Below, piece after piece: positions 18,310 through 45,751 of a stretch of 64,000 nt of DNA. Position 1 is the first letter of the stretch; each line of letters opens with the position of its first letter. The stretch is taken from positions 1 to 64,000 of the forward strand of contig CAYLXA010000013.1 of the NCBI GenBank assembly GCA_964387845.1. Reading direction: 5' to 3'. Position numbers and translations under genes: made by a program. The stretch comes from an uncultured bacterium (GTDB lineage: Bacteria > Omnitrophota > Omnitrophia > Omnitrophales > Abzuiibacteriaceae). The notes beneath the pieces were generated by a model. That model was not told the origin of the DNA, made no database searches, and saw only the letters and a list, made by a program, of their open reading frames with translations.

Positions 18310-18312
18310 AAG

Positions 18313-20151: not shown

Positions 20152-20155
20152 GCAG

Positions 20156-20455: not shown

Positions 20456-20949
20456 ACCTCTTTCCTCGTGAGTGAAATAACGCCAAGGATACCGACCAAA
20501 AGAACTAGCGACACGAGTTCAAATTGCAAAAGGTATTGGGAAAACAGAGTGCGCCCGACGCTTTCGATAGTTCCCAAAACAGATACGGATTTTAATTCGG
20601 TATTTGCCGAAGCATGGACAACGATCCAGATTTCAAGAAAAAAAGCGGTAATGACCGCATAAATCGTCAACCGCTTGAAGGATGAAGCCGTTTTTTGTCC
20701 CTCTTCGGATGTATTAACACCCATCAGCATCAGCATGAATAGGAAAAGAACCAAAATGGCACCCGCGTAAATTAAAATTTGAATAATGGCTACAAAATAA
20801 GCTTCAAGCAGCACAAAAAGACCGGAAAGGGAAAACATCGTAATGACAAGTGCGAGAACGCCTTGGGTCGGGCGTTTTGTGAAGACAACATAAAGAGCGC
20901 TTAAAATGGCGGCGGCCGAGAATAGATAAAACCAAAAAATTTGGGTCAT
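20452..20949 (-). CDS. nuoJ: NADH-quinone oxidoreductase subunit J (copy 1)
   Basis: 165-aa membrane protein in the position and of the length of NuoJ, upstream of nuoK. Confidence 0.75.
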   Translation of the reverse strand: MTQIFWFYLFSAAAILSALYVVFTKRPTQGVLALVITMFSLSGLFVLLEAYFVAIIQILIYAGAILVLFLFMLMLMGVNTSEEGQKTASSFKRLTIYAVITAFFLEIWIVVHASANTELKSVSVLGTIESVGRTLFSQYLLQFELVSLVLLVGILGVISLTRKEV

Positions 20950-21042: not shown

Positions 21043-21309
21043 CTAAGAGGAAGAGGAGGAGGAAACGAGAAAGGTGGCCTTATTTTTGTAGACTTCAAAA
21101 AAGCCATTGCCAACCTGATAGGCCAGTTCTTTTTGATTGGGTTCCCGGATTTTTAGTTTTCCGGGAACCGTTGTGGAAATGAGTCCTGCGTGATTGGCAA
21201 GAACGCCAAACGAACCCTTTTCGCCGGGCACAACAATGGATTCAACGGTGCCGGAATAAGCCCGGCCATCCTGCGTGATCAAATCCAATGTAAATGTAGG
21301 TACAGTCAT
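21043..21309 (-). CDS. atpC: F1 ATP synthase epsilon subunit, short form (beta-sandwich only) with a poly-Ser C-terminus
   Basis: 88 aa matching the epsilon N-terminal domain. No C-terminal helical hairpin. Ends SSSSSS. Confidence 0.8.
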   Translation of the reverse strand: MTVPTFTLDLITQDGRAYSGTVESIVVPGEKGSFGVLANHAGLISTTVPGKLKIREPNQKELAYQVGNGFFEVYKNKATFLVSSSSSS

Positions 21310-21320
21310 GATTTACAATT

Positions 21321-21393
21321 AGTTGTAAGTTTTAAGTTATAAGTGCTAAGTAAATCGAACTACTTACCACTTACAACTTATCACTTAACACTT
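21321..21393. repeat. GTAAGT-heptad hairpin R1 (atpD-atpC intergenic)
   Basis: Left arm of nnTAAGT heptads (21321-21352), right arm of inverted heptads (21361-21393). Confidence 0.7.
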
Positions 21394-21395
21394 GG

Positions 21396-22876
<1,481 letters not shown>

Positions 22877-22879
22877 CGG

Positions 22880-23749
22880 TTATTTAGCTTGCTGCGCTTT
22901 TGACCCGGATACAATTTCAATAAGTTCTTTTGTAATAGAAGCTTGCCTTGCTTTGTTGCGCTGCAAGGTAAGCGAATCGATCATTTCTTTGGCATTGTCG
23001 GTTGCTTGGCGCATGGCCATCATGCGCGAAAGCTGTTCGGACACCAACGCTTCTTTCAACGATTGTTCGACTTTTAATTCCAAAAAATGCGGAATCATGA
23101 CTTCCAAAATTCTTTCCGCTGCAGGCTCCAAGATGTAATCTTTGTCCGAATTTTTTTCGGATTTTTCAGACGGAATTTCCTGCAAAGGAAGCAGCTGTTC
23201 GACTTTTGGCTTATAAGACGACATCGAAATAAATTCCGTGTAAATCAGATATACTTGATCTACTTTTTTATTCAAAAATTCATTTTTCGCGGCATCTAAA
23301 ATTGCAGCCGCCGCTTTTTTGATTTCGGTCGGCCTCGGAATTCCGATTTCGCCCACAACATTGCGATTTTTACGCTTAAAATAACCAAGCCCCTGGCGGC
23401 CAATTGAGAAACAGGATACATTTTCTTTTCGGGAACCAAGAAAAGCCTCGGTTGTTTGAAGCAAATTGAAATTATAAGAGCCGCACAGCCCTGAATCCGA
23501 TGTCAGCAAAAAAACCAAGATATTCTCAGGTTCGCGCACATCAAAGAGCGGGTGATTAAACGACTTCACCTGCGTGCTGACTTTGCCCAAAATACGCCGC
23601 AGCTCACCGGCGTAAAGGCGCGTTTGCCCGAGGAGATCCTGATATTTCTTGAGCTTCGAAGCTGCCACCATTTCCATGGCTTTGGTGAGCTTTTTGGTGT
23701 TGTTGACACTTCGAATGCGCTGCTTAATCTGCCTTAAAGATTCAGCCAT
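22880..23749 (-). CDS. atpG: F1 ATP synthase gamma subunit
   Basis: 289 aa with conserved gamma N- and C-terminal helices (MAESLRQIKQRIRSV... and ...AQQAK). Confidence 0.9.
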   Translation of the reverse strand: MAESLRQIKQRIRSVNNTKKLTKAMEMVAASKLKKYQDLLGQTRLYAGELRRILGKVSTQVKSFNHPLFDVREPENILVFLLTSDSGLCGSYNFNLLQTTEAFLGSRKENVSCFSIGRQGLGYFKRKNRNVVGEIGIPRPTEIKKAAAAILDAAKNEFLNKKVDQVYLIYTEFISMSSYKPKVEQLLPLQEIPSEKSEKNSDKDYILEPAAERILEVMIPHFLELKVEQSLKEALVSEQLSRMMAMRQATDNAKEMIDSLTLQRNKARQASITKELIEIVSGSKAQQAK

Positions 23750-25255
23750 TTATTTTGCAAAATTCTGTTTGTGAGAAGTGATGGCTTGCGTGAGCTTTGA
23801 CTTCAACTCATCGTTCAGCACTTTCTCGGAATTAATTTTCATCGGAATGTCGGGATATTTTTGCTCGATAAATTCAACCAAACTGTTTACGAACGGCCCG
23901 ACCTTATCGATCGCTAGGTCATCCAAATGGCCTTCGGTGCCGGCAAAAATTGAAATAACCTGCCTGCTCAAAGGTTCCGGCGACAAAATATCCTGCTTTA
24001 AAATTTCAACCATCCGTTCGCCGTGCACGAGCTGCTGTTTGGTGGCTTTATCCAGGTCGGTCGAAAGCTGCGAAAATGCCGCAAGTTCGCGGTATTGCGC
24101 AAGACTCAAACGCAACATGCCGGCCACTTGTTTCATGGCTTTGGTTTGCGCGTTTCCGCCGACGCGTGAAACGGAAAGACCAACGTTAATCGCAGGACGA
24201 ATGCCGGAAAAAAAGAGGTCCGATTCCAGGTAAATCTGGCCGTCTGTAATCGAAATCACGTTTGTCGGAATATACGCCGAAACGTCACCAGCCTGTGTTT
24301 CGATAATTGGAAGCGCTGTGAGCGATCCGCCGCCCAACGATTGATGAACTTTTGATGCGCGCTCCAAAAGACGGGAGTGAAGATAAAAAACGTCTCCGGG
24401 ATACGCCTCGCGTCCGGGCGGGCGCTGCAGCAAGAGTGACAATTGGCGATATGCTTGCGCGTGTTTCGACAAATCGTCATAAATGCAAAGTGCGTGCTGC
24501 CCGCTGTACAAAAACTCTTCCGCCATAGCACAACCGCCGTAAGGCGCTAAATATTGCAACGGAGCAGGGTCTTCGGAAGCTGCGACAACGACTGTGGTGT
24601 ATTCCATCGCGCCGTATTTTTCGAGCGTGTTCACAATGCTCACAACACTCGACATTTTTTGGCCGATCGCGACATAAAAACAGAAAACGTTTTTACCTTT
24701 TTGATTAATGATGGTGTCGATCGCGATTGCAGTTTTTCCTGTCTGACGGTCACCGATGATGAGTTCGCGCTGGCCGCGTCCGATCGGAATCATGCCGTCG
24801 ATGGCCTTGATGCCCGTTTCGAGAGGTTCTTTCACAGGTTGGCGCTGAATAACGTTCGGCGGCATGAGTTCAATCGGCCGGAACTTATCCGTTACGATCG
24901 GCCCTTTGCCATCCAGGGGTTCTCCGAGAGGATTGACGACACGTCCCAAGAGGGCTTTGCCGGCCGGAACCTGTGCGATTTTGCCGGTCCGCTTAACCTG
25001 GCTGCCTTCTTTAATATTCTTGTCGGAACCCATAATCACGATACCGACGTTGTTCATTTCAAGGTTGAGAGCAAGGCCTTTCGTGCCGTCAGAAAACTCA
25101 ACAAGCTCAGAGGCCATGACGTCGTCAAGCCCGTAAGCGCGCGCAATGCCGTCGCCGACTTGAAGAACGTAACCCACCGAATCCATTTTGAGTTTGGATT
25201 CGAATTTCTCGATTTCTTTTTTAATTGCAAATGTGACTTCTTCTGGTTTTAACAT
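23750..25255 (-). CDS. atpA: F1 ATP synthase alpha subunit
   Basis: [19 protein letters not shown]-loop, 501 aa. Confidence 0.97.
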
Positions 25256-25270
25256 GACTTCTTTCCCGGG

Positions 25271-25816
25271 TTATGAATTTGATCCGATCATTTGTTGCTT
25301 TAATGAATCCAATTTAGCTCTGACAGAACCGTCAAACAACCGGTGACGGATTTGGACGTTGATGCCTCCCAAAATCGAAGGGTCTACCTTGATCTTCGAA
25401 ATTATTTTCTCGCCTATTTTCTTTTCTAAAATTTTTTCAAGCTGGCTTTTTAAATTTTCGCTTAAAGGTCTGGCAGTCGTAATTAAAACTTCTTCGAAAT
25501 GATTGCTCGCGTTTAAAAGCTCGTGATAACACTCTAAGATTTGATTTAAAATTTCAAACCGGCCCTTTTCCAAAAGGAGCGAGATGAATTCAATCGTGAG
25601 CGCGCTTAGTTTGCCGTGATTTGTTTTAGCAAGAAGCGATTTTTTTTCTTCAAACGAAATAATTGGATTTTTGAAGAATTGCGCAAATTGCTTATTGTTC
25701 TCGATGGCTCCCAGGAAGGCTTTCAGCTCTCCCTCAATCTTCAGCTCGGATTTGGATTGAGCTGCCAATTCAAACAACGCTTTGGCGTATCGGGAGGCAA
25801 GTGCGCGGTCTTTCAT
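25271..25816 (-). CDS. atpH: F1 ATP synthase delta subunit
   Basis: 181 aa in the OSCP/delta position between atpF and atpA. Confidence 0.8.
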   Translation of the reverse strand: MKDRALASRYAKALFELAAQSKSELKIEGELKAFLGAIENNKQFAQFFKNPIISFEEKKSLLAKTNHGKLSALTIEFISLLLEKGRFEILNQILECYHELLNASNHFEEVLITTARPLSENLKSQLEKILEKKIGEKIISKIKVDPSILGGINVQIRHRLFDGSVRAKLDSLKQQMIGSNS

Positions 25817-26331
25817 GACTCTACCAGCGGCCCTTTGGTTTCATCGAGTTCCTTGATGAAATCGATAATAAGCTGCTCATCCTTTTTGTCGGTGAGCTTG
25901 TCTTTAACGATCCGTTCAGTCGCGGAAAATGCAAGTCCCGCGATTTCCCGGCGCAAAGAAACATGCGCCTTGGCGGTTTCAAGCCGGATATCTTCCTTGG
26001 ATTTTTCAAGGATTTCCTTGGCTTGATTGCGCGCTTCATCCTGAAGCTGGCGCGATAGTTTTTTGCCTTCCTGGATTACTTGCTCCATTTTGGCGCGCGC
26101 TTCTTCTTCGATGTGGCGCAATTTGTCGTCGTAATCCGACTTCAATTTGGCCAGCTCTGCCTTGGTGGCATCAATTTCGCGAAATCCACCCTCAATTTTC
26201 TGTCTTCTGCCTTCGAGCATTGCCAAAACCGGTTTCCAGACTTTGGCTTTGAGAAACAGAAAAATGATGATGAATGCAAGAAGCTGAACAAAAACTTCTC
26301 TTAATTGAATATTCGCTGCGAAAAATTCCAT
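25813..26331 (-). CDS. atpF: Fo ATP synthase subunit b
   Basis: Single N-terminal TM helix followed by a long charged helix, 172 aa. Confidence 0.8.
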   Translation of the reverse strand: MEFFAANIQLREVFVQLLAFIIIFLFLKAKVWKPVLAMLEGRRQKIEGGFREIDATKAELAKLKSDYDDKLRHIEEEARAKMEQVIQEGKKLSRQLQDEARNQAKEILEKSKEDIRLETAKAHVSLRREIAGLAFSATERIVKDKLTDKKDEQLIIDFIKELDETKGPLVES

Positions 26332-26349
26332 GTCAAAGTTTCCGGCAGC

Positions 26350-26580
26350 TTAGATTTTTCCCATCAATGAAAAGCCAAACACGAGCGCATAAAGCGTCAA
26401 AGCTTCGATGAGTGCGCAGCCGGCCATCATGTTAACGAGAATCTTCGTAGAAGCTTCAGGCTGGCGTGCGGTCGCATCCATGGCGGCGGCAACGGCTTTT
26501 CCGAGCGCGAAAGCGGAAGCGAGCGCGGTAACGGCAAGCCCGAGGGGAAGTGCAAATGATAATGCAACTTGAGGTGTCAT
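26350..26580 (-). CDS. atpE: Fo ATP synthase subunit c
   Basis: 76-aa two-helix hairpin with the carboxylate Glu in CALIEALTLYAL. Confidence 0.85.
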   Translation of the reverse strand: MTPQVALSFALPLGLAVTALASAFALGKAVAAAMDATARQPEASTKILVNMMAGCALIEALTLYALVFGFSLMGKI

Positions 26581-26604
26581 GATTTTTATTCTCCTTTATT
26601 TTGG

Positions 26605-27465
26605 TTAATGAGCGTGCGCCGCTTCGGCAGCATGCCCGTGGTGATGATCTTCATGAGGTAAAACAAGTGAAATATACACCGTTGAAAGCAGCATAAACAC
26701 AAACGCCTGCACCATGCTGAACGCAATCGCAAGCACGTTGGCGAATATTTGCAGCAGGAACGGTATTCCCTTAAATAAAACGTTTAACTCCGCAAATTTA
26801 AAAAGCAGTTTGTCTTCGCTGGAAACGTTTGCAAATAAACGAAGCGACAAACTCAGGGGCACGGCAACAAACTCGACTGAAAGATTAATAACGAGCATGA
26901 GCGGAATTAAAATGTAGCCAAACAAATTAGAAGGATTTCCGGCCACATGCTTCAAATAATGCACCGGGCCTTGTGCGCGGATTCCGGTCCATTGAACGTA
27001 AGCGGTTGTGAATATTGCAAGCGCCGCGGTAGTTCCCCAAACCGCCGTTGAAGATTTCATCAGAGGCACTAAACCGCTCCAGTTCATGAGAAGAATGTAA
27101 ATAAAAACGGTCCCTAAAAAAGGCACATGCTCGCGGCCCCGGTCTCCGAGAATTCCGGTGACGAAGGTTTCGATGCCTTCAACGAATAATTCCACAAAAT
27201 TTTGGATGCCTTTCGGGATGAAGCTTGCTTTTCGGACTGCCGCAACGCCGACGAAAATAATCAATGCCGCCGCTGTCATCGAGAAAATAACGTTTTCCCA
27301 GCGGTGCAGGAAATGAACGATTTCAGAATCCGGGAAAGTGTTGTTGAGTACGGTAATTAGATTGGCAAGCTCATGATGCGCTTCACCGTGATGGGCGCCG
27401 GCCGCTGCGTGATGAACGGCTTCGGCTGCATGTTCGGCGTGACTTGCGACTTCGTGTTCCGTCAT
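26605..27465 (-). CDS. atpB: Fo ATP synthase subunit a with His-rich N- and C-terminal tails
   Basis: Conserved LSLRLFANV (essential Arg) and 5 TM helices. N-terminal HAEHAAEAVHHAAAGAHHGEAHHE and C-terminal HEDHHHGHAAEAAHAH. Confidence 0.85.
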   Translation of the reverse strand: MTEHEVASHAEHAAEAVHHAAAGAHHGEAHHELANLITVLNNTFPDSEIVHFLHRWENVIFSMTAAALIIFVGVAAVRKASFIPKGIQNFVELFVEGIETFVTGILGDRGREHVPFLGTVFIYILLMNWSGLVPLMKSSTAVWGTTAALAIFTTAYVQWTGIRAQGPVHYLKHVAGNPSNLFGYILIPLMLVINLSVEFVAVPLSLSLRLFANVSSEDKLLFKFAELNVLFKGIPFLLQIFANVLAIAFSMVQAFVFMLLSTVYISLVLPHEDHHHGHAAEAAHAH

Positions 27466-35540: not shown

Positions 35541-36977
35541 TTAGATTGCGAAGAAATTGACGAGTGCGACCTGGACGAAGGAAATCACGCTGGAAGGAAA
35601 AAGGCCGATTGCGACGGTTCCAAAAAGCGCCACAACAACGCAGGCAATCGCCAAATTGGAAGCCGTAACCGGTGAATGTTTGTCGCTGTGCGTGAGGTAC
35701 ATCGCGCGGACAATTTTGAAATAATAAACCGCTGCGATGGCGCTGTTGATGGCGGCTGCAACTGCGAGCATGATGAAACTATGCTGAATCGCACTCGCAA
35801 ACACAAACCATTTTCCGATAAATCCCGCAAGCGGTGGAATTCCGGCCAAAGACAACATAAAAATCAGCATGCAGGCCGCTAAAAATGGATTTCGTTTAGA
35901 AAGGCCGTTTAACGCCTCAATGCGGCTTGAGCCCTCGCTCTCCTCAATGGCGGCAAGCGTCAAAAAAGCGCCCATATTGGTAAAGATGTAGGTGATGATA
36001 TAAATGAAAACTGCTTCAACGCCGGTTCCTGAGGCCGTGGCAAGTCCCATTAATATGTAGCCGGCTTGCGCAACGCTGGAATAGGCCAAAAGGCGTTTGG
36101 CACTGGCCTGAGAGACAGCCGTGATGTTGCCGATCGTCATAGTCAAAATGGAAAGCACAACCAAAATCGAGCTCCATTCGGCGTGGAAATTTTGAAAAGC
36201 GCTGAATAAAACACGGCAGATCACCAAAAAGCCAATGCCTTTCGGTGCGACGGTCAAAAACGCCGCAATCGGTGTCGGCGCACCTTCATAAACATCCGGC
36301 GCCCAGGCATGAAACGGCACGGATGAAATCTTGAATCCGAATCCGACCAACAGGAACACAAGCGCTACCTTTGCCGTGGCGATGATGGAAGGGCTTGCGG
36401 CTTTAAAAACGGCGTTCATTTGCGTGAGCTCTAACGTTCCCGTGAGGCCAAACAAAATCGACATGCCGAAAAGCATGCAGGCTGATGAAACGCCGCCGAA
36501 GAGAAGGTACTTGAGTGATGCTTCGCTCGAGCGTTTATCGAATTTACGGAAACCGGTCAATATATAGGAAGACAGCGAAACCGATTCGATCGCGAGGAAA
36601 ATCATCAGCAAATTGGTGGTAGAACCCATCAAAACGAGCAGGAATAGCAGAAAAGTGACCAAGAAATAGAATTCTCCCTTTTGCTTTTCCGGAATCAGTT
36701 TGGATTGAATCACGGAAGCGATGGCAAGGCTTGTCGCAATCGCAAGGCCGATCTGGAGAAAATAGCTGAACACATCGTAATAAAAGAGCCCCGAAAAAAG
36801 CGACATGGCTTTTTGCGGATAAGGCAAAAGCCAGAGGGAAACCGTAATGCCGATGAGCGCAATGAGGCCGTTCACTTTTTGTTCGAGGCCAAAAAGATCG
36901 AGCACCAAAACAAGCAGTGCAGCGCCAATTAAGACGGCGTGCGGAATAAAATACGGTAAGCTCGCGAGTGCGTCCAT
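35541..36977 (-). CDS. nuoN: NADH-quinone oxidoreductase subunit N (copy 2)
   Basis: HAWAPDVYEGAPTPIAAF motif, 478 aa. Confidence 0.88.
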   Translation of the reverse strand: MDALASLPYFIPHAVLIGAALLVLVLDLFGLEQKVNGLIALIGITVSLWLLPYPQKAMSLFSGLFYYDVFSYFLQIGLAIATSLAIASVIQSKLIPEKQKGEFYFLVTFLLFLLVLMGSTTNLLMIFLAIESVSLSSYILTGFRKFDKRSSEASLKYLLFGGVSSACMLFGMSILFGLTGTLELTQMNAVFKAASPSIIATAKVALVFLLVGFGFKISSVPFHAWAPDVYEGAPTPIAAFLTVAPKGIGFLVICRVLFSAFQNFHAEWSSILVVLSILTMTIGNITAVSQASAKRLLAYSSVAQAGYILMGLATASGTGVEAVFIYIITYIFTNMGAFLTLAAIEESEGSSRIEALNGLSKRNPFLAACMLIFMLSLAGIPPLAGFIGKWFVFASAIQHSFIMLAVAAAINSAIAAVYYFKIVRAMYLTHSDKHSPVTASNLAIACVVVALFGTVAIGLFPSSVISFVQVALVNFFAI

Positions 36978-36978
36978 A

Positions 36979-38448
36979 TTACATTAAACTTCCGATTTGG
37001 GCCAAAAGCGCGTTCATGCTCGGCGTCATCACATCAAGAATCAGTTTTGGATAAACGCCCAGGACTAAAATAATCACCATGAGCGGAATAATCGTAAAAA
37101 GCTCGCGCGCGTTGATATCCGTCAGTTTTTCCCACTTCTGGTTAAACGGCCCGAGCAATACTTTTTGAATCATGTAAAGCAGGTAGCAGGCAGCCAAGAG
37201 GATTCCGATGCAGGAAATTCCGGTGATCCAGGGATAAATTTTGAATGCGCCGAGCAATACCATAAATTCACTGACGAAACCGCTCAGGCCCGGCAAACCC
37301 ATCGAAGCGAACGTTACAAAAATCAAAACGCCCGAATAAACACTCATTTTCACACCCAAGCCGCCGAAGGCGTTCATGTCGCGTGTATGAGCGCGGTCAT
37401 ATAAAACACCAACCAGCAAGAAGAGCGCGCCGGTGATGGTTCCGTGGTTGAACATTTGAAGCATGGCGCCGTTTAAGCCGTTTTGCGTAAAAACCGCGAG
37501 GCCCAACAGCACAAAACCCATGTGGCTGACGCTGGAATAAGCGACCATTTTTTTGAAATCGGTTTGCGCAAACGCTACGAATCCGCCGTAAACGATTCCG
37601 ATTGCAGCCAAAATGCCCATCGCAAGCGAAAACCAATGTGCCCCAAGCGGCAAAATCGGATAGCTGATCCTGAAAAATCCGTAGGTCCCCATTTTAAGAA
37701 GCACGGCCGCCAGAATCACGCTGATCGGTGTCGGCGCTTCAACGTGCGCATCCGGAAGCCACGTGTGGAACGGGAAAACCGGGACTTTGATCGCAAACCC
37801 GAGGAAAAACGCGAGAAAAATGATTTTTTGGAATTCCAAGCTAAAGGAATTGTTGCGGAGCGCGATCATGTCAAACGTATGCGGCGTGCTCGAGAAAAAG
37901 AGCGCCAAAATACCCAGCAGCATGAACAAACTTCCGGCCAATGTGTAAATAAAAAACTTAATTGCCGCATATTCTTTGCGCGGTCCGCCCCAGATGCCGA
38001 TCAGGAAATACATCGGAACCAGCACCACTTCCCAAAAAACGTAAAAAAGGAAAAGATCGAGAGACAAAAATGTGCCGAACATACCGGTTTCAAGCAACAA
38101 ATAAAGCGCGAAGTATTCTTTTACGCGGTCTTTGATGCCGTAACTTGCGACACAAGCCAGAAGGGAAATCAAGCCGGTGAGGAAAATCATCGTTACGCTG
38201 ATGCCGTCGATTCCGAGTGAATAAAAAACGTTCAACGGCTCGATCCAGCTGATTTTTTCCGCAAATTGAATGCCGGTGTTGGCGGAGTCAAAGTTAAGCG
38301 TGACGTAAGTCGTGAGCAGAAACACGACTGCGCTAACCGACGTTGCGATGGTCCGGATTAATTTTGTGTTTTCCTTCGGCGCGAGCATCGTCAAAATCAT
38401 GCCGACGACCGGCAAAAATATAATGGAAGACAGAATTGGAAAATTCAT
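36979..38448 (-). CDS. nuoM: NADH-quinone oxidoreductase subunit M (copy 2)
   Basis: HTWLPDAHVEAPTPISVILAAVLLKMGTYG motif. Confidence 0.9.
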   Translation of the reverse strand: MNFPILSSIIFLPVVGMILTMLAPKENTKLIRTIATSVSAVVFLLTTYVTLNFDSANTGIQFAEKISWIEPLNVFYSLGIDGISVTMIFLTGLISLLACVASYGIKDRVKEYFALYLLLETGMFGTFLSLDLFLFYVFWEVVLVPMYFLIGIWGGPRKEYAAIKFFIYTLAGSLFMLLGILALFFSSTPHTFDMIALRNNSFSLEFQKIIFLAFFLGFAIKVPVFPFHTWLPDAHVEAPTPISVILAAVLLKMGTYGFFRISYPILPLGAHWFSLAMGILAAIGIVYGGFVAFAQTDFKKMVAYSSVSHMGFVLLGLAVFTQNGLNGAMLQMFNHGTITGALFLLVGVLYDRAHTRDMNAFGGLGVKMSVYSGVLIFVTFASMGLPGLSGFVSEFMVLLGAFKIYPWITGISCIGILLAACYLLYMIQKVLLGPFNQKWEKLTDINARELFTIIPLMVIILVLGVYPKLILDVMTPSMNALLAQIGSLM

Positions 38449-38462
38449 CGAGTAAATCTCCT

Positions 38463-40373
38463 TTATTTAAAAACTCCGTAAAGAATCCACAAAATTCCGA
38501 CAAAAACGAAAAATAGATAATGATGGATAAATCCGGTTTGGAAAAGCCGCAGCACGGAACTCAAAGTTTGCGTGATCCATCCCGTAAAGTTCACCAAGCC
38601 GTCAACGATATGCTGATCGATCCAAAATTTTACCCGAGCACTCCATTTGCCGAAGCGGCCCGTATCATTCACGATGCGGTCGACAACTTTTTGATCGAAT
38701 TGAAATAAGAAATCCGCCTTCCATTGAAATAAGCGGCCGAATGTGGCGCTATAAATTTCATCGAAATAAAGTTTGTTGAGAGAAACCGTGTAAAGCGGTT
38801 TCAGGCTTTGTGCGATTTTAGCCGGAATGTCGGTTCTCACCAGATAAAACACGTAAGCCATTACAGCACCTAGAGTTGCAACAACTATCGATAGAATCAT
38901 CAGCGTGTAATTTGGATGAATTTCCTCCGGATGGCCGCCGTGCAAAAAGGTTTGAAACCAATGATGCATGAAAGGCGAACCGGGAATACCGGCACCGACC
39001 GCAAACACAGCCAAAATCATCAAAGGAACCGTCATCGACGCAGGGGATTCGTGCGCGTGAATGTGGCCGCGTGTTTTTCCGAAGAAAGTCAAAAATGTGA
39101 GCCGGAACATGTAAAAGGAAGTTAAAAATGCAGTGATAACAAGCAGCGCCAAGATAACGTAATGCCCGGACTCGTAAGCGCTGAGCAGAATTTCATCTTT
39201 GCTCCAAAATCCGGCAAACGGCGGAATGCCTGCGATTGCGATTGTCGCGATTAAAAATGTCCACGCCGTTTTCGGCATATGCTTGAACAGCCCGCCCATT
39301 TCACGAATGTCCTGCGTACCTGTGCCGTGAATCACGGAACCGGCGCCCAAAAAGAGCAGTGCTTTGAAAAACGCGTGCGTCATTAAATGAAAAGAGCCGG
39401 CGCTGAATCCTCCGCAGCCCAAAGCTGCGATCATATAACCAAGCTGAGAAATCGTTGAATAGGCGAGCACTTTTTTAATATCCGTTTGCGTCAGTGCAAT
39501 AAAAGCACCGATGCAAGCGGTTGTGGTTCCGATAACAGCCACAACGTCAGCGGAATTTGGAAACGCTTCATAAAGCGGCGTGAGGCGCGCAACCATGTAA
39601 ACGCCTGCGGCCACCATTGTCGCGGCGTGAATCAAAGCACTGACGGGTGTCGGGCCTTCCATCGCATCCGGAAGCCATACGTGAAGCGGAAACTGCGCCG
39701 ATTTTCCGATGGCACCGCAAAAGAGGAAAATTCCGGCAATTCCGACAATCCAGGCATTGTGATGATGGAAGAAGTCGTGATTGAAATCCGCGAAAAGTAC
39801 GGTCCCGGTGGAATAAAAAAGAAGTGCAATGCCGATGAAAAATCCGACGTCGCCGATCCGGTTTGTGATAAACGCTTTCTTGCTGGCGTCAGAAGCGGAT
39901 TTCTTTTCAAACCAGAATCCGATCAAAAAGTAAGAGCAAAGGCCGACAAGCTCCCAGAAAATATACATTTGGACAAGATTGGTTGCGAGCACAAGGCCGA
40001 GCATCGAAAATAAAAAGAGCGCCAAGTAAGCGAAAAAGCGCGAATACCGCGCATCTTCATGCATGTAGCCTGTCGAGTAAATCACGATGAGTGAGCCGAT
40101 GAATGTGACGACAAAAAGCATCATCGCGGTCAAAGGATCCACCATAAATCCGAATTGAAGCGCTTTAGCGCCGAAGGGAAGCCAGTCAAAATTGATGAGA
40201 ATCGTCTCGCCTTTCAGAACCGGCTGAATGACGATCATCGACAAAATAAAAGAACCGACGCTGGCTGCGATGGTGACGAGCGAGGCTTTGTGCTTCAGCG
40301 TTTTTCCGAAGAAAATATTAATCGTAAACGCCGCGAGCGGAAGTAATGGAATTAAAGCGAGTTGAGTTACCAT
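38463..40373 (-). CDS. nuoL: NADH-quinone oxidoreductase subunit L (copy 2)
   Basis: HVWLPDAMEGPTPVSALIHAATMVAAGVY motif, 636 aa. Confidence 0.92.
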   Translation of the reverse strand: MVTQLALIPLLPLAAFTINIFFGKTLKHKASLVTIAASVGSFILSMIVIQPVLKGETILINFDWLPFGAKALQFGFMVDPLTAMMLFVVTFIGSLIVIYSTGYMHEDARYSRFFAYLALFLFSMLGLVLATNLVQMYIFWELVGLCSYFLIGFWFEKKSASDASKKAFITNRIGDVGFFIGIALLFYSTGTVLFADFNHDFFHHHNAWIVGIAGIFLFCGAIGKSAQFPLHVWLPDAMEGPTPVSALIHAATMVAAGVYMVARLTPLYEAFPNSADVVAVIGTTTACIGAFIALTQTDIKKVLAYSTISQLGYMIAALGCGGFSAGSFHLMTHAFFKALLFLGAGSVIHGTGTQDIREMGGLFKHMPKTAWTFLIATIAIAGIPPFAGFWSKDEILLSAYESGHYVILALLVITAFLTSFYMFRLTFLTFFGKTRGHIHAHESPASMTVPLMILAVFAVGAGIPGSPFMHHWFQTFLHGGHPEEIHPNYTLMILSIVVATLGAVMAYVFYLVRTDIPAKIAQSLKPLYTVSLNKLYFDEIYSATFGRLFQWKADFLFQFDQKVVDRIVNDTGRFGKWSARVKFWIDQHIVDGLVNFTGWITQTLSSVLRLFQTGFIHHYLFFVFVGILWILYGVFK

Positions 40374-40675
40374 TTTAAAAGGTCGATTTCGTCTGTGTAA
40401 ATGGTGTCCTGGTTTCTATAGATAGAAAGTACGATCGCAAGGCCGACGCCGGCTGCTGCGGCCGCCATCACAATGATAAAGACCGCAAAAATCTGCCCCA
40501 CTTCCGGGCTTGTATTGGTGTAGCGCGAGAAGGCGACCAAATTAACATTGACGGAATTAATCATGATTTCGATCGCGATTAAAATTCCGACAATATGGCG
40601 GCGCGTCAAAACGCCGTAAAGCCCGATGCAAAAAAGAATCGAGGTAAACACCAAAATATGCTGAAGCGGTACCAT
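40367..40675 (-). CDS. nuoK: NADH-quinone oxidoreductase subunit K (copy 2; TM3 Glu replaced by Ala)
   Basis: 102 aa with IAIEIMINSV present, but TM3 reads VMAAAAAGVGLAI instead of ...AAAEA.... Confidence 0.85.
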   Translation of the reverse strand: MVPLQHILVFTSILFCIGLYGVLTRRHIVGILIAIEIMINSVNVNLVAFSRYTNTSPEVGQIFAVFIIVMAAAAAGVGLAIVLSIYRNQDTIYTDEIDLLKW

Positions 40676-41178
40676 TATTGGTCTCCCCGTGCAATCACAA
40701 TTGCGCCGATCAAAGCCACGACCAAAACAATCGAAATAATTTCAAACGGAAGCACATAATTTCCCATAAACGCTTTTCCGATTGCGACGGCGTCCACGGT
40801 GGTCAAGTTGTCTTTCACCGGCCACGCCGTGTGAGTCATTACTCGGACTAGAAACCCGATTAAAATCGCAATACCGATCGCGACCGGAATTTTTTGCCGG
40901 TTCGATGTCGGAATGGAGGTGTCGCCCATTTTTGAAGTCATCATAACGGCGAAAATAACGAGCGTGACGATGGCGCCCACATACAGCAAAATTTGAATGG
41001 CGCCCAGAAATTCGGCGTGCATGACAAAATAGGTTCCAGCAACACCCAAAAGTGCAAATACGAGCCCGAGCGCGGCGTGGAAAATATTCCGTACGGTCAC
41101 CGCAAGAAGCGCTGACAGTAACGTGATGCCAAAAATGGCATAGATTCCGTATTTGGTAATCGCTGCTAGTACGTCCAT
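40675..41178 (-). CDS. nuoJ: NADH-quinone oxidoreductase subunit J (copy 2)
   Basis: 167-aa membrane protein in the NuoJ position. Confidence 0.78.
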   Translation of the reverse strand: MDVLAAITKYGIYAIFGITLLSALLAVTVRNIFHAALGLVFALLGVAGTYFVMHAEFLGAIQILLYVGAIVTLVIFAVMMTSKMGDTSIPTSNRQKIPVAIGIAILIGFLVRVMTHTAWPVKDNLTTVDAVAIGKAFMGNYVLPFEIISIVLVVALIGAIVIARGDQ

Positions 41179-41189: not shown

Positions 41190-42329
41190 TTATTCTGCGT
41201 ATCGATAAACCCGCTTCTTGGGAAGCATCGGTTTATTGATTGCCAGTAAAATAAAAACACTGAAAGCCAAAACAACACCTGTCGTGACAAAGTTCATCGG
41301 GAATGCCGAGCTTTTCCAGAGACAAGCGACAAAAATATTGACTAATGATAACGGAAGCAAAAATTTCCACGCAAAACCCATCAGCTGATCGACGCGCAGG
41401 CGCGGAAATGTGCCGCGGAACCACATCATCGTGAAAATAAGTGCGTATGTTTTAATCAAAAACCAAACCCAGCTGGGGAGAAGAGGGCCTTGCCAGCCGC
41501 CCAGATAAACGGTTGCGACCAGGGCTGAAACCGTAAACACATTCATAAATTCGGCCATATAAAAGAGCGCGAACTTCATGCCGCTGTATTCCGTGTGAAA
41601 CCCGGCGATGATTTCGGATTCGGCTTCCGGAAGGTCAAACGGCGTGCGGTTGACTTCGGCAACGGCACAGAGAAAGAAAATAAAAAATCCGACAATTCCC
41701 CAAGGCGAAAATACGAACCAATTCATTCCGGTTTGAGCTTCCACGATTTTTACTGTCGAAAAGGAGCCGACCATTAAAAGAACGGGAACCACGGAAAGAA
41801 TAAACGGAATTTCATACGAAATCATTTGTGCGACGGAACGCATTCCGCCTAAAAGTGAAAACTTATTCCGGGAACCCCACGCAGCCGTGAAAATAAAAAC
41901 GGTTGTGGTGCCTGAAATCGCGAGGAAAAACAAAACGCCGATATTAAGATCGGCCGCGATCATGTTGCGGCCGAAGGGAAGCACGGCAAACACCAAAAGC
42001 GCCGGAATCACAATCGCGATCGGCGCCAGCGTGTGCGCAAATTTGTCGGCACCGGTCGGCACGACGTCTTCTTTTGTCATCATTTTAACGCCGTCCGCCA
42101 AAGGCTGCAGAAGACCGAACGTTCCGACACGGTTTGGGCCGTAACGATTTTGAACACGAGCTAAAATTTTGCGTTCAAACCATGTGAGGTACATCATCGT
42201 AAGTGGCCCGAAAATAGCGACGCCCACAATCGGAATTAAAATCGCGACAATGACCACAAGCCAATCAGGCAGAATGGGCGTTACGATACTCACAATCCCT
42301 GCTTTTAAATTGACGAATAATTGATCCAT
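41190..42329 (-). CDS. nuoH: NADH-quinone oxidoreductase subunit H
   Basis: NuoH-conserved regions (YLTWFERKILARVQNRYGPNRVG). The start is taken at the internal ATG two nt after the nuoI stop; the K/R-rich upstream extension in the ORF track is probably untranslated. Confidence 0.9.
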   Translation of the reverse strand: MDQLFVNLKAGIVSIVTPILPDWLVVIVAILIPIVGVAIFGPLTMMYLTWFERKILARVQNRYGPNRVGTFGLLQPLADGVKMMTKEDVVPTGADKFAHTLAPIAIVIPALLVFAVLPFGRNMIAADLNIGVLFFLAISGTTTVFIFTAAWGSRNKFSLLGGMRSVAQMISYEIPFILSVVPVLLMVGSFSTVKIVEAQTGMNWFVFSPWGIVGFFIFFLCAVAEVNRTPFDLPEAESEIIAGFHTEYSGMKFALFYMAEFMNVFTVSALVATVYLGGWQGPLLPSWVWFLIKTYALIFTMMWFRGTFPRLRVDQLMGFAWKFLLPLSLVNIFVACLWKSSAFPMNFVTTGVVLAFSVFILLAINKPMLPKKRVYRYAE

Positions 42330-42330
42330 G

Positions 42331-42927
42331 TTATGAATTTGCCGGCGGAGTTGGTGGTGTTTGTGGAGCAGCTGCAGCCGCTTTCGCTTGGGCCAATTTC
42401 GCCGCAGCTTCCTGTGCCTTTTTGGCCTCTTCTTTTTTACGGCGGTCTTCAGCGATGCGCGTTGCATCGGTCGGCCGTATCTTCATAAAATATTCCGCCG
42501 GTTTCAGGAGCCTGTCTTTCGTGTAATTCAAATCATTGAAACGGCCGTATTCTCCGAGCTCAAACGTGTGGTCCATGTAAATCGCGTCAAACGGGCAAAC
42601 TTCTTCGCAAATACCGCAGTTCATGCAGATGGAGTAATCGATATTGAATACTTTCGGGCGCTTCAGCGGTTTGTTTTGCTCATCGGCGTCTTTGACGATG
42701 TGAATGCATTTGGGCGGGCATTCTTTCGCGCAAATATCGCACGCCACACAGCGAAGATTATCCGGCGTTGCATCATAAATTAAAAAAGGAAAATTGCGAA
42801 AACGCTCTTTTTCCGGCAAACGCTCTTCCGGAAACTGAACTGTCGTCAAATGATCTTTTGAAAAATAGCTGGCCACAAAGTTTTTAAGCGTGACCGCCAT
42901 TCCTTTTAATACACCTAACCCAAACAT
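42331..42927 (-). CDS. nuoI: NADH-quinone oxidoreductase subunit I (2x[4Fe-4S]) with an A/K/E/P-rich C-terminal tail
   Basis: CVACDICAKECP and CMNCGICEEVCP ferredoxin motifs, plus a ~40-aa low-complexity tail. Confidence 0.9.
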   Translation of the reverse strand: MFGLGVLKGMAVTLKNFVASYFSKDHLTTVQFPEERLPEKERFRNFPFLIYDATPDNLRCVACDICAKECPPKCIHIVKDADEQNKPLKRPKVFNIDYSICMNCGICEEVCPFDAIYMDHTFELGEYGRFNDLNYTKDRLLKPAEYFMKIRPTDATRIAEDRRKKEEAKKAQEAAAKLAQAKAAAAAPQTPPTPPANS

Positions 42928-42936
42928 CTAAACTCC

Positions 42937-43016
42937 TAGTTGTAAGTTGTAAGTGGTAAGAGATAAGTAAAAAGCTTTTAACTTAACACTTATCACTTAC
43001 CACTTATGCCTTATCT
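42937..43016. repeat. GTAAGT-heptad hairpin R3 at the nuoD/nuoI junction
   Basis: Left arm tagttgtaagttgtaagtggtaagagataagta, right arm aacttaacacttatcacttaccacttatgccttatct. Confidence 0.7.
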
Positions 43017-44174
43017 ATCAACTTCCCCTAAAACGATATCAACACTTCCAAGAATAATGACAGCATCCGCCACTTTGTGGCCGAGGCACATATCTTCTAA
43101 AATCGTCAAATTAACAAAGCTGGGCGCACGGACGTGATAACGATATGGTTTGTTCGTGCCGTCGGAAACCAGATAAAATCCAAGCTCGCCCTTAGGCGCT
43201 TCGATGCGGCTGTAAACATCGCCTTTCGGCGGCTTGAAGTTACGCGGCGTTTTTCCGATTGTGGCACCTTGCTTTGAAATATGCTCACCGGCCGGAATTT
43301 CTTTTACGGCCTGCTCCAGAATCTTGATACTTTCACGCATTTCCAAAATACGGACATAATAACGGTCATACACATCGCCATGGTCGCCTAGCGGCACGCG
43401 GAACTTGAAACGATTATAAATTCCGTAACCATCAACTTTGCGAATGTCGTAATCAACACCGGCCGCGCGAAGCATGGGGCCTGTGACACCTGCATTAATT
43501 GCCAAATCTTTGGGTAAAACACCGACGCCTTGCGTGCGGGACATTAAAATTTCGTTTTCGGAAAGCAATTTTTCGAATTCATCGAGAAACTTCGGATATT
43601 TTTGGATAACTTCTTTCACGCGAGGCAAAAAATCCTCCGTCACATCCAGTTTTTGTCCGCCGAAGCGGAAATAATTACACATCATGCGTGAGCCGGCAAC
43701 GCTTTCGAATAAATCGAGAATTTTTTCGCGCTCGCGGAATGCATAAAGCACGGGCGTAAAGAATGCGCCCAAGTCATTCAGCAAAAATCCGACGAGGAGC
43801 GTGTGATTCACAAGCCGCGTGAGTTCCGCCATGATGATTCGAATATACTGTGCGCGCTCTGAAACCTCGATTTTGGCGAGTTTTTCAACCGCCATTGCGT
43901 AAGAAAAATTGTTGGTCATCGAGCAGAGATAATCCAAGCGGTCCGTAAAGGGCATCGAGGCCAAGTAAGTCATATTTTCGGCGAGTTTTTCGTGATTGCG
44001 GTGCAGATAGCCCATGAAAGGCTTCAGCTGAACAATGTTTTCGCCGTCGAGTTTAATATCCATCCGGAACACGCCGTGCGTGGAAGGGTGCTGCGGCCCG
44101 AGGCTGACTTCGAGCGTTTGCGTGTCGAGCGTTTTATCGAGTAAATTATGTTCCATATTTATTTTCGTCGTCAT
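43011..44174 (-). CDS. nuoD: NADH-quinone oxidoreductase subunit D (49 kDa)
   Basis: 387 aa with the NiFe-hydrogenase-large-subunit-like fold signature and the conserved C-terminus [12 protein letters not shown]. Confidence 0.93.
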
Positions 44175-44232
44175 TCTGAGGCGCAGCCGAAGAATCTAGA
44201 TCCTTCGCTTCGCTCAGGATGACGATTAATTC

Positions 44233-44700
44233 TTATCCTGTCGCCTTCTGGATGACTTCGCTTTGATCATCCGACACATAGTCTTTGCGCATCGGATAAA
44301 ACTGAAAACCTTCCCACATCAAAATTCTGCGTAAGTCCGGATGTCCTTCGAATTGAATCCCGAACAAATCGTACGCTTCGCGCTCTTGAAACTCGGCACT
44401 CCGCCAAACAGGTGTCACGGACGGAATTTTCCCCGTTTCGCGGTCGGTACGGACTTTGATGGCGAGCGGGCCATGTTTTTTTGTCATGGAATACAAATGA
44501 TAAACCGCTTCAAGATGCGTGGTGTAGTCAACGCCCGAAACGCTTGAAAGGAAATTAAGCTCATAATCGGGATTTCCCTTAAGAAACATGGCCACTTCAA
44601 GCCATTTTTCTTTGGGAACTATCAAACTATCCGCTTCAATCGTAATTTGCGAAGACGTACGTGATTCGATGTCTTTTTTAATTTCTTCTAGGGATTTCAC
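44233..44700 (-). CDS. nuoC: NADH-quinone oxidoreductase subunit C (30 kDa)
   Basis: NuoC conserved core (LKVRTD...[11 protein letters not shown]). The start is placed at the GTG overlapping the nuoB TGA stop (GTGA). Confidence 0.85.
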
Positions 44701-45344
44701 GAATACACCGTAATGTCTTTGCGGGAATTGGCCTGCGGATTCCAAATTTCAGGATTGTACTTCGGGATTAAACCGTTCGGCCCGTATTCCGGAACCGGAA
44801 ATTCACGTTTCAGGCCTTTTTGATACCACTCGGTTTTTTCAATTTCTTGCGAATCGATTTTCTCTTGAAGCTTCATTAAACCATGCAAGAGCGCTTCCGG
44901 GCGCGGCGGGCAACCGGGCAGGTGAACATCGACCGGAATGTAACGATCAATTCCTTTTAACACATTGTATCCGTCGATAAACGGGCCGCCCGAAATGGAA
45001 CAAGCGCCCATCGTGATGCAATATTTCGGCTCCGGCATTTGATTGTAGAGACGAACCACATTCGGCGCCATTTTTTTGGTGACTGTGCCGGCGATGATGA
45101 TGAGGTCAGCTTGACGCGGCGAAGCGCGGAAAAGTCCCGCGCCGAATCGATCGATGTCGTAGCGTGCGCAGGCCGTGGCGATCATTTCAATCGCGCAGCA
45201 AGCAAGTCCGAACTGGAGCGGCCAAATAGAAGAGCGGCGGCCCCAATTGTAAAGCGCTTCAAGGGGCGTAATGTAAACGCCCTTTTTTGATAGTTCGTTT
45301 TTTAAACCGTCTTCAACTTGATTAACATTCGGTGTGAAAGCCAT
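44697..45344 (-). CDS. nuoB: NADH-quinone oxidoreductase subunit B (20 kDa) with a ~55-aa C-terminal extension
   Basis: GLACCAIEM and the cysteines ligating cluster N2. The start is taken at the ATG overlapping the nuoA TAA stop. Confidence 0.88.
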
Positions 45345-45718
45345 TATTTCCATTCCAGCGCGTGTTTGCGCCATGCGTAGGCAAGCCCGAGAGCAAGAAT
45401 TGCGATGAAAATTAACATTTCAATAAAAGCAAAAAGCCCGAGCTGGTTGTAAGCAACCGCCCAAGGGTAGATAAAGACGGTTTCGACATCGAAAATCACG
45501 AAAATCAGCGCGAAGATGTAATACTGGACCTTAAATTGAATCCATGCGTCACCCTTGGCTTCAAGGCCGCATTCGTAAGAGGCATTTTTTATCTGATTGG
45601 GTTTCTTGGGTGCGACGATTTTGGCTAGTATTATAGGAAGCGCTGGGAAAACAATGGCGACCAGAAGAAACACACCCAGAAACCAATAATTGTATAAATA
45701 CGAATCGATATTGTTCAT
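45344..45718 (-). CDS. nuoA: NADH-quinone oxidoreductase subunit A
   Basis: 3-TM protein with a conserved ECG motif (YECGLEA). The ATG at 45718 is preferred over the TTG at 45739 because a promoter -10 lies at 45752-45757. Confidence 0.8.
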
Positions 45719-45751
45719 CTGAAATAGGGAATTGGACAACGATATCCGTTG

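What the first reader, a model, noticed from the sequence alone, without database searches (positions are those of the whole stretch)
40367..40675. NuoK of the complete operon lacks the conserved TM3 glutamate (E to A); the orphan-cluster NuoK keeps it
Canonical NuoK/ND4L carries two membrane-embedded glutamates: TM2 (..GLEIMIN..) and TM3 (..AAAEA.IGLA..). These form part of the central hydrophilic axis of the membrane arm. NuoK2 reads IAIEIMINSV (present) but VMAAAAAGVGLAI (Glu replaced by Ala). NuoK1 in the orphan nuoJKLMN cluster has both (LSAEIMLNAV, AASEVAIGLAI). This is a complementarity pattern. The two membrane modules might therefore differ in pumping properties or be used under different conditions.
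Basis: partly seen in the sequence, partly recalled or inferred. Interest (0 to 1): 0.55.

Follow-up and report, generated by a model that had tools for sequence, protein, structure and literature searches.

The report
Complex I NuoK missing one glutamate
In a whole lineage of the uncultured phylum Omnitrophota, a small membrane subunit of respiratory complex I has replaced one of its two "essential" buried glutamates with a small neutral residue and kept it that way under strong selection, which gives a natural test of how the proton pump is coupled.

Summary
NuoK2 (40367-40675, minus strand) keeps the TM2 glutamate (E36). It has Ala74 exactly where E. coli NuoK has E72 and where the window's second NuoK (K1, 20156-20455) has E71.

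It is not a lesion or an artefact.
- All 68 non-Glu NuoK sequences I found (Ala/Thr/Ser/Gly) form one clade with no Glu-bearing sequence inside. All named members are Omnitrophota.
- About 180 other NuoK sequences from many phyla all keep Glu.
- dN/dS against a 95%-identical relative is 0.014.
- No acidic residue occurs anywhere else in TM3, so the Glu has not shifted.
- Every other conserved charged residue of the membrane arm is intact in operon 2 (nuoABCDIHJKLMN, which has no nuoEFG).

Most likely this is a working proton pump in which E36 is the only NuoK carboxylate.

- The orphan nuoJKLMN module is itself conserved across Omnitrophota, usually beside the ATP synthase operon.
- The two sets are shown on one contig only for this organism and its closest relative.
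- One Thr-type relative has no orphan set next to its ATP synthase operon.
- The orphan NuoM lacks the TM7 lysine, so that module is not simply canonical either.

This is a new variant of a known kind, of moderate interest.

The parts
40367..40675 (-). nuoK2: 102-aa NuoK/ND4L of the 11-gene operon. TM2 Glu present, TM3 Glu replaced by Ala.
   Evidence: PF00420 at E=1.7e-27. Translation. Alignment to solved NdhE/NuoK chains.
40454..40456 (-). Codon GCA = Ala74, at the position of E. coli NuoK E72 / ND4L E70.
40568..40570 (-). Codon GAA = Glu36, the conserved TM2 glutamate, retained.
   Evidence: Glu in 68/68 clade members.
40502..40504 (-). Codon GAA = Glu58, a clade-typical acid at the start of helix 3. 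It is at the membrane surface, not buried.
   Evidence: Glu in 53/68 clade members against Leu/Ile/Val elsewhere. Helix 3 starts at residue 57.
40675..41178 (-). nuoJ2. The TM3 Tyr66 is conserved. Thr72 (codon 40963-40965) is a frequent but not obligatory clade signature.
   Evidence: PF00499..
41190..42329 (-). nuoH2. The likely start is the Met of MDQLFVNL; the longer ORF to 42467 overlaps nuoI2. All conserved E-channel acids are present.
   Evidence: PF00146 at E=4e-120..
42331..42927 (-). nuoI2, lying before nuoH (unusual D-I-H order), with a Lys/Ala/Pro-rich C-terminal tail.
   Evidence: Fer4 families. The order is conserved in L008, L011, L015, L016, L100 and L182.
43011..45739 (-). nuoD2 (43011-44174), nuoC2 (44233-44745), nuoB2 (44697-45374), nuoA2 (45344-45739). 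NuoA D84/E86 (E. coli D79/E81) are present. The NuoD HPSTHG and DRLDY motifs and the NuoB cluster-N2 cysteine motifs are present.
35541..40373 (-). nuoL2 (38463-40373), nuoM2 (36979-38448), nuoN2 (35541-36977). All canonical TM5 Glu and TM7/TM8/TM12 Lys/Glu residues are present.
15359..20949 (-). Orphan nuoJ1 (20452-20949), nuoK1 (20156-20455; E35 and E71 present), nuoL1 (18313-20151), nuoM1 (16786-18309; Ile230 in place of the TM7 Lys), nuoN1 (15359-16786).
21043..27465 (-). F1Fo ATP synthase operon atpB-E-F-H-A-G-D-C, ending 93 bp upstream of nuoJ1. This neighbourhood is conserved for the orphan module.
   Evidence: Same neighbourhood in L095, L097 and L183.

Best explanation
NuoK2 is the genuine NuoK subunit of an 11-subunit complex I (nuoABCDIHJKLMN, no NADH-oxidising EFG module) in an Omnitrophota bacterium. 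An ancestor of this lineage replaced the buried TM3 glutamate with a small uncharged residue. The position has since drifted only among Ala, Thr, Ser and Gly, and has never returned to Glu.

The rest of the charge relay is intact: the NuoH glutamates, NuoA Asp84/Glu86, NuoJ Tyr66, NuoK Glu36, NuoN Glu131/Lys216/Lys246/Lys389, and all key NuoM and NuoL residues.

Inferred, not shown: the enzyme still works as a redox-driven proton pump. Glu36 would be the single titratable group of NuoK. The space left by the missing carboxylate would be filled by water, or in many members by a Ser/Thr hydroxyl, to pass the proton or charge signal on to the NuoN Lys-Glu pair.
For: - Distribution. All 61 closest homologues (99-56% identity; the named ones are Omnitrophica) have A, S, T or G at the site. 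The other 59 listed hits have Glu. All 120 K1-type homologues have both glutamates. All 78 NuoK genes from the other-phylum loci of the genome scan keep Glu. Of the best 150 representatives of 50%-identity clusters, 141 have both Glu, 6 are non-acidic and carry the clade signature, and 1 has Asp.
- Single origin. A neighbour-joining tree built with the site masked puts all 68 non-Glu sequences in one clade with no Glu sequence inside.
- Selection. dN/dS is 0.014 against L008 and 0.10 against L100.
- Operon context. The same 11-gene operon surrounds Ala, Thr, Ser and Gly variants in L008, L011/L012, L015, L016, L100 and L182.
- Other residues. Every background-conserved charged residue in NuoA, H, J, N, M and L is retained in operon-2-type loci.
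- Mechanistic context. Complex I is described as having 'two essential glutamates' in NuoK (PMC7419157). Protonation of the E36/E72 site is proposed to trigger the NuoN K217-E133 pair (PMC13324432). From my own recollection of Kervinen 2004 and Kao 2005, which I could not read here, E. coli E72 mutants keep part of the activity while E36 mutants lose nearly all.
Against: - No biochemical, expression or structural data exist for this enzyme, so activity is inferred only from conservation.
- The clade reflects one ancestral event, so the statistics count sequences rather than independent losses.
- No obligatory compensating residue was found. The mechanism of bridging (water or hydroxyl) is conjecture.
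- The electron donor and quinone type of this 11-subunit enzyme are unknown.
Confidence: 0.6

Rival explanations
1. Complementation or division of labour. The orphan JKLMN set is an alternative distal membrane arm that docks onto the single A/B/C/D/I/H core. The cell would then build two complexes, with a one-Glu or a two-Glu NuoK, that differ in pumping properties or in the conditions of use.
For: Both sets lie in this window and on one 525 kb contig of a close relative. The orphan set always comes as exactly J-K-L-M-N without A or H, so it has no Q-module connector of its own. The two sets are old paralogues: K1 and K2 share 38% identity. Each departs from the canonical pattern at a different residue, K2 lacking the TM3 Glu and M1 lacking the TM7 Lys.
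Against: Co-occurrence is shown for one species group only. In L127, a Thr-type lineage, no orphan set follows the atp operon. No other long contig in the best-120 hit lists carries both types. NuoJ and NuoK contact NuoA and NuoH, so swapping them would require interfaces compatible between two distantly related lineages; this was not tested. No known precedent exists for exchanging NuoJ and NuoK. Cyanobacteria exchange only NdhD and NdhF (own knowledge).
Confidence: 0.15
2. Re-tuned stoichiometry. Removing one of the carboxylates that store protons at the NuoK/NuoN junction lowers the number of protons moved per two electrons, for example 3 instead of 4. This would adapt the pump to a smaller redox span or a high back-pressure in these very small, often anaerobic cells.
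For: In the 'domino' model the E-channel glutamates deprotonate each cycle, and the E-channel accounts for one of the four pumped protons (PMC10212512). The site is held as small and neutral across the clade. The enzyme lacks the NADH module, so its donor and driving force may differ.
Against: This is purely inferential. The three antiporter-like subunits are fully canonical. Nothing in the sequence reports stoichiometry.
Confidence: 0.15
3. The orphan JKLMN is an independent Mrp-like cation/proton antiporter or a partner of the adjacent ATP synthase, unrelated to operon 2. On this view the K1/K2 contrast is a coincidence of two separate machines.
For: NuoL, M, N, K and J are homologous to MrpA, D, C and the MrpA C-terminal domain (PMC7419157). 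The module is conserved beside atpIBEFHAGDC and a BBP2 porin in several genera.
Against: There are no MrpE/F/G-like genes. K1 has the complex-I type two glutamates rather than the Mrp histidines. In L004 and L095 the set is separated from the atp operon by intervening genes on the opposite strand, and L099 has no atp genes nearby.
Confidence: 0.07
4. Artefact, misalignment or a decaying gene.
For: None found.
Against: The same state appears in independent assemblies from NCBI, JGI, ENA and Logan. The alignments to solved structures are gap-free. dN/dS is 0.014. The operon is intact.
Confidence: 0.02

Closest known systems
Canonical NuoK / ND4L / Nqo11 of respiratory complex I (E. coli E36 and E72; solved in 3rko, 7nyr, 4hea, 8qby)
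   Same: It has the same Pfam family, length, three-helix fold and position between nuoJ and nuoL. It also shares the TM2 Glu, the Arg25/Arg26 loop and Asn40.
   Different: The TM3 Glu, invariant in about 180 other sequences examined here, is Ala in this window and Ala/Thr/Ser/Gly across the clade. Gly30 on TM2 is an invariant clade signature.
NdhE of cyanobacterial/chloroplast NDH-1 (6hum_E, 6khi_E, 7wff_E)
   Same: It is the best solved sequence and fold match (E=1e-30, about 50% identity). It also belongs to an 11-core-subunit enzyme without NuoEFG.
   Different: NdhE keeps the TM3 Glu. The oxygenic-specific Ndh subunits were not looked for and are not expected here.
Laboratory E. coli NuoK E72 mutants (Kervinen 2004; Kao 2005; Torres-Bacete 2012; listed as references in PMC13324432)
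   Same: They carry the same substitution class at the same residue.
   Different: Those are engineered single mutants with reduced activity (own recollection; the papers were not readable here). This is a natural state, long fixed and under purifying selection across a clade.
MrpC / MbhG of Mrp antiporters and membrane-bound hydrogenases
   Same: They are homologous three-helix subunits in which the complex-I glutamates are not both present. MrpC has His37/His40 instead (PMC7419157).
   Different: NuoK2 keeps Glu36 and Asn40, has no histidines, and sits in a full nuo operon with a Q-module.
Alternative distal modules of cyanobacterial NDH-1 (NdhD/NdhF paralogues), as a precedent for module swapping (own knowledge)
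   Same: One core enzyme is combined with paralogous membrane subunits.
   Different: There only the antiporter-like subunits are exchanged. Here the spare set would also include NuoJ and NuoK, and exchange is not demonstrated.

Membership tests
NuoK/ND4L (PF00420, complex I subunit K) | Significant match to the family profile over its full length | tested here: met
   PF00420 at 95.4 bits against a cutoff of 26.1, profile positions 2-95 of 95.
NuoK/ND4L (PF00420, complex I subunit K) | Three transmembrane helices; fold matches solved NuoK/NdhE | tested here: met
   The AF2 model has helices 4-24, 28-51 and 57-94. The top Foldseek hits are NdhE/NuoK chains.
NuoK/ND4L (PF00420, complex I subunit K) | Encoded between nuoJ and nuoL in a nuo operon | tested here: met
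   The same holds in relatives.
NuoK/ND4L (PF00420, complex I subunit K) | Membrane-embedded TM2 glutamate (E. coli E36) | tested here: met
   E36 is present here and in 68/68 clade members.
NuoK/ND4L (PF00420, complex I subunit K) | Membrane-embedded TM3 glutamate (E. coli E72) | tested here: not met
   Ala74 occupies the site, and no acid occurs at positions 60-86 in any clade member. This is a conserved functional residue rather than a criterion of homology, so I still file the protein as a variant NuoK.
MrpC/MbhG-type subunit | Two conserved histidines on TM2 (H37/H40) in place of the glutamates; mrp or mbh gene context | tested here: not met
   The sequence has E36 and N40 and no His in TM2 or TM3. 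The context is nuoABCDIHJKLMN. The MBS MrpC-like chain 6u8y_G is only a weak match (E=2e-4).
11-subunit complex I (NDH-1 type without NuoEFG) | nuoA, B, C, D, H, I, J, K, L, M and N present; no nuoE, F or G in the operon | tested here: met
   All eleven match their Pfam families. None of the 15 other window ORFs scanned against Pfam matches a NuoE, F or G family. The rest of the genome was not available.
11-subunit complex I (NDH-1 type without NuoEFG) | Intact quinone-site and cluster-N2 motifs (NuoD His/Tyr; NuoB Cys ligands) | tested here: met
   Read directly from the translations. NuoD has GPQHPSTHG and TDRLDY. NuoB has [14 protein letters not shown] and PGCPP. Assigning these motifs to their functions rests on my own knowledge.
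11-subunit complex I (NDH-1 type without NuoEFG) | Proton pumping and the identity of the electron donor | not testable with these tools
   This needs biochemistry.

The most novel reading that the evidence does not exclude
Omnitrophota would run a naturally re-engineered complex I whose E-channel carries one carboxylate fewer, giving a lower proton-to-electron ratio. The same core could also accept a second, separately encoded J-K-L-M-N arm with a two-Glu NuoK and a Lys-less NuoM. That would make two pumps with different gearing from one redox module, which would be the first case of exchangeable NuoJ/NuoK-containing membrane arms.
Probability: 0.1. Interest if true: 0.85.

Novelty: new variant of a known kind. 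Interest (0 to 1): 0.5.

Why it matters
The two NuoK/ND4L glutamates sit at the hand-over point between the quinone-site E-channel and the first antiporter-like subunit. Current coupling models disagree about what happens there.

This lineage has lived for a long time with only one of the two glutamates while every other pump residue stayed canonical. That makes it a ready-made natural mutant. It says the TM3 carboxylate is not indispensable, and it names the substitutions that are tolerated (Ala, Thr, Ser, Gly, always together with Gly30). It also supplies sequences for structural, simulation and stoichiometry work.

I found no mention of this in the Omnitrophota or complex I papers I searched. 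They describe Omnitrophota complex I only as present or 'fragmentary'.

Tried and rejected
1. Genome scan with an alignment of the Glu-less clade. Only L015, L016 and L049 were relevant. The other 77 loci served as a cross-phylum control.
2. Metagenome scan centred on AtpH, meant to capture both NuoK genes in one locus. It yielded one useful locus, L127, which shows nuo2 followed by atp with no orphan set after atpC.
3. Testing genome-level co-occurrence through protein accession numbers. The K1-type and K2-type accessions of the Rifle genomes appear to fall in different assemblies, so this was inconclusive.
4. Matching 'longest contig' values between hit lists. The shared 10,607 bp value was a coincidence: L100 carries only the K2-type gene.
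5. Search for a compensating acid in NuoK, J, A, H and N. None is buried in the membrane. E58 is at the helix cap.
6. NuoJ Thr72 as an obligatory partner. Rejected, because several operon-2-type NuoJ have Ile or Val there, and an outgroup carries Thr one residue earlier.
7. Na+ coupling hinted at by the neighbouring ATP synthase. The c subunit reads ALIEALTLY and has Lys where Na+-binding c subunits have Gln, so it looks H+-type (motif assignment is my own knowledge).
8. Torres-Bacete 2012 (PMC3522275) is not held in the library.
Full report
**What is at the coordinates**

The minus-strand ORF 40367..40675 encodes a 102-aa protein. It matches Pfam PF00420 (NuoK/ND4L) over the whole profile at E=1.7e-27.

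It lies in an 11-gene minus-strand operon, and every gene matches its Pfam family:
- nuoA 45344-45739
- nuoB 44697-45374
- nuoC 44233-44745
- nuoD 43011-44174
- nuoI 42331-42927
- nuoH 41190-42329
- nuoJ 40675-41178
- nuoK 40367-40675
- nuoL 38463-40373
- nuoM 36979-38448
- nuoN 35541-36977

There is no nuoE, F or G in the operon or among the window ORFs I scanned. nuoI precedes nuoH. So the 'complete operon' is the 11-subunit form.

A second set, nuoJ-K-L-M-N only, lies at 15359-20949. It starts 93 bp downstream of an F1Fo ATP synthase operon at 21043-27465.

NuoK2 has Glu36 (GAA, 40568-40570). It has Ala74 (GCA, 40454-40456) where K1 has Glu71 and E. coli NuoK has Glu72.

Gap-free alignments to solved NdhE and NuoK chains place Ala74 under their 'AAAEA' glutamate. 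An AlphaFold2 model built on 34 clade sequences has helices 4-24, 28-51 and 57-94, which puts both positions mid-helix. Its best fold matches are NdhE/NuoK chains.

The Glu has not moved. No clade member has Asp or Glu anywhere in positions 60-86.

**It is a clade trait, not a lesion**

- In a search of 5.8 billion proteins, the 61 closest homologues (99-56% identity) all have Ala, Thr, Ser or Gly at the site. The named ones are Candidatus Omnitrophica, including Ca. Danuiimicrobium aquiferis. The remaining 59 listed hits, from Latescibacteria, Chloroflexi, Actinobacteria, Bacillus and others, all have Glu.
- All 120 best homologues of K1 keep both glutamates.
- In 80 genome loci returned by a broad NuoK pattern, the only non-Glu cases were two Omnitrophota (L015 Ser, L016 Thr) and one unclassified 'bacterium BP4.bin41' (L049, Ala). 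The other 77 loci span cyanobacteria, Acidobacteriota, Chloroflexota, Actinomycetota, Bacillota, NC10 and Methanosarcinaceae, and their NuoK genes (78 in all) keep Glu.
- Among the best 150 representatives of 50%-identity clusters from 1.84 billion proteins, 141 have Glu/Glu, 6 are non-acidic and all carry the clade's GIL..IE signature, one has Asp, and two are truncated.
- A neighbour-joining tree of 250 NuoK sequences, built with the column masked, puts all 68 non-Glu sequences in one clade with no Glu-bearing sequence inside. The states are Ala 29, Thr 29, Ser 9 and Gly 1. L182 adds another Gly.
- The gene is under strong purifying selection. dN/dS is 0.014 against the 95%-identical L008 copy, at 83% nucleotide identity, and 0.10 against L100.

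**Everything else in the pump is canonical**

I extracted NuoA, H, J, K, N, M and L from the Glu-less operons (window, L008, L011, L013, L015, L016, L049). I did the same for the K1-type clusters (window, L004, L095, L097, L099) and for the cross-phylum loci, then compared conserved charged columns.

Operon-2-type proteins keep every conserved charged residue:
- NuoA: Asp84 and Glu86 (E. coli D79/E81)
- NuoH: all conserved acids, including E173, E225, E237, E239 and E247
- NuoJ: Tyr66 and Glu146
- NuoN: Glu131, Lys216, His223, Lys246, Lys389
- NuoM: Glu140, Lys221, His228, Lys252, Glu394
- NuoL: Glu141, Arg172, Asp175, Lys224, His249, Lys337, Lys392, Asp393

The NuoD quinone-site motifs (HPSTHG, DRLDY) and the NuoB cysteine motifs are visible in the translations.

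No membrane-embedded acid is gained in NuoK, J, A, H or N. Three changes do co-vary with the loss:
- Gly30 on TM2, in 68/68 clade members against Ile/Val/Met elsewhere.
- Glu58 at the cap of helix 3, in 53/68 against hydrophobic residues elsewhere.
- Thr72 in NuoJ TM3, at the E. coli V65 position, frequent in the clade.

Thr72 is not obligatory. Several operon-2-type NuoJ have Ile or Val, and an outgroup has Thr one residue earlier.

**How it most likely works**

In current models a proton or charge passes from NuoH E157 through NuoA D79 to the NuoK E36/E72 site. Protonation of that site flips the NuoN K217-E133 pair and starts the wave along NuoN, M and L (PMC13324432).

The two NuoK glutamates are called essential (PMC7419157). 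In the 'domino' model the E-channel accounts for one of the four pumped protons (PMC10212512).

The conservation evidence shows an enzyme that is maintained, intact and missing only this carboxylate. From that I infer that it still pumps. Glu36 would be the only titratable group on NuoK, and water, or the Ser/Thr hydroxyl in half of the clade, would bridge the gap.

A lower proton-to-electron ratio is a plausible consequence but is untested.

**The orphan module and the complementarity idea**

The J-K-L-M-N-only set is itself a conserved Omnitrophota feature. It is found in:
- L004, a JGI 525 kb contig
- L095/L096, Ca. Abzuiibacterium crystallinum
- L097/L098
- L183
- L099, a MAG labelled Chlamydiae

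It is usually next to or near atpIBEFHAGDC and is followed by a BBP2 porin.

It shares a contig with the Glu-less operon only in the window's lineage. In that relative K1 lies at 261966-282265 and K2 at 288638-308946 of contig Ga0268299_1000036.

In the Thr-type Ca. Danuiimicrobium contig the order is nuo2, then atp, then unrelated genes (L127). No other long contig appears in both the K1-type and the K2/J2-type hit lists. Those lists are truncated, however, and whole genomes could not be searched.

The orphan NuoM is also non-canonical. It has Ile230 in place of the TM7 lysine (E. coli K234) and WSPIGY in place of WLPDAH, in 5 of 5 clusters. The same Lys-less NuoM is the sole NuoM in 11-subunit operons of Dehalococcoidia, Bacillota and Syntrophomonas.

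So each set departs from the textbook pattern at a different residue. That is compatible with two differently geared arms, but it is equally compatible with two unrelated machines.

**Novelty and verdict**

Searches of the held literature found mutagenesis and modelling of E36/E72 and general statements on Omnitrophota complex I. None describes a natural Glu-less NuoK lineage or the orphan J-K-L-M-N module.

I rate this a new variant of a known kind. It is well supported as an observation, moderately interesting for complex I mechanism, and its functional reading still needs experiments.

Noticed in passing
window 16786-18309 (-), codon 17620-17622; also L004, L095, L097, L099: The orphan NuoM1 has Ile (Val in one relative) where NuoM/ND4 has the TM7 lysine (E. 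coli K234), and WSPIGY instead of WLPDAH. The TM5 Glu, TM8 Lys and TM12 Glu are kept. The same Lys-less NuoM is the only NuoM in 11-subunit operons of Dehalococcoidia, Bacillota and Syntrophomonas (L021, L029, L036, L056, L022, L061). It is the second NuoM in L017 and L033.
   Followed up: partly
window 15359-27465 (-); L095, L097, L183: A nuoJ-K-L-M-N-only module directly or closely follows the F1Fo ATP synthase operon and is followed by a divergently oriented BBP2 porin. This neighbourhood is conserved across several Omnitrophota genera. In L097 and L183, DUF5329 and an ATP/ADP translocase (TLC) gene follow.
   Followed up: partly
window 41190-44174 (-); L008, L011, L015, L016, L100, L182 versus L049: The gene order nuoD-nuoI-nuoH (I before H) is conserved in the Omnitrophota operons. 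The more distant Glu-less locus L049 has the usual H-I order.
   Followed up: partly
L013/L014 7953-15381: A Ser-type member of the Glu-less clade sits in a membrane-arm-only cluster, nuoA-H-J-K-L-M-N, with no nuoB, C, D or I nearby. Similar A-H-J-K-L-M-M-N clusters occur in Chloroflexia and Anaerolineales (L017, L033).
   Followed up: no
window 42331-42927 (-): NuoI2 carries a C-terminal tail of about 45 residues rich in Lys, Ala and Pro (…RRKKEEAKKAQEAAAKLAQAKAAAAAPQTPPTPPANS). The long upstream extension of the nuoH ORF (to 42467) overlaps this tail and is probably not translated.
   Followed up: no
window 21043-21309 (-): The ATP synthase epsilon subunit is only 88 aa and matches only the N-terminal domain family. 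Relatives have 88-104 aa. The C-terminal inhibitory helices appear to be missing.
   Followed up: no
window 45891-56777 (-): A giant 3628-aa ORF lies immediately upstream of nuoA2. The relative L008 has a beta-helix giant protein of more than 3181 aa in the same place, and L182 has a 5786-aa AAA_5 giant protein just after nuoN.
   Followed up: no
window 40502-40504 and 40586-40588 (-): Two NuoK residues co-vary with the Glu loss. Gly30 on TM2 is found in 68/68 clade members and is not among the common residues elsewhere. Glu58 at the start of helix 3 is found in 53/68, against hydrophobic residues elsewhere. Their role is unknown.
   Followed up: partly
window 31110-35336 (-): Trehalose genes (OtsA-like 33855-35336, OtsB-like 33009-33854, DUF5752, TreT-like 31110-32330) directly follow nuoN2, here and in L008. 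otsA and otsB also flank the atp operon in L097.
   Followed up: no
P0412 (representative search): One NuoK representative outside the clade has Asp instead of Glu at the TM3 site (…AAADAAVGLAIV…). It was the only conservative replacement seen among about 400 sequences.
   Followed up: no
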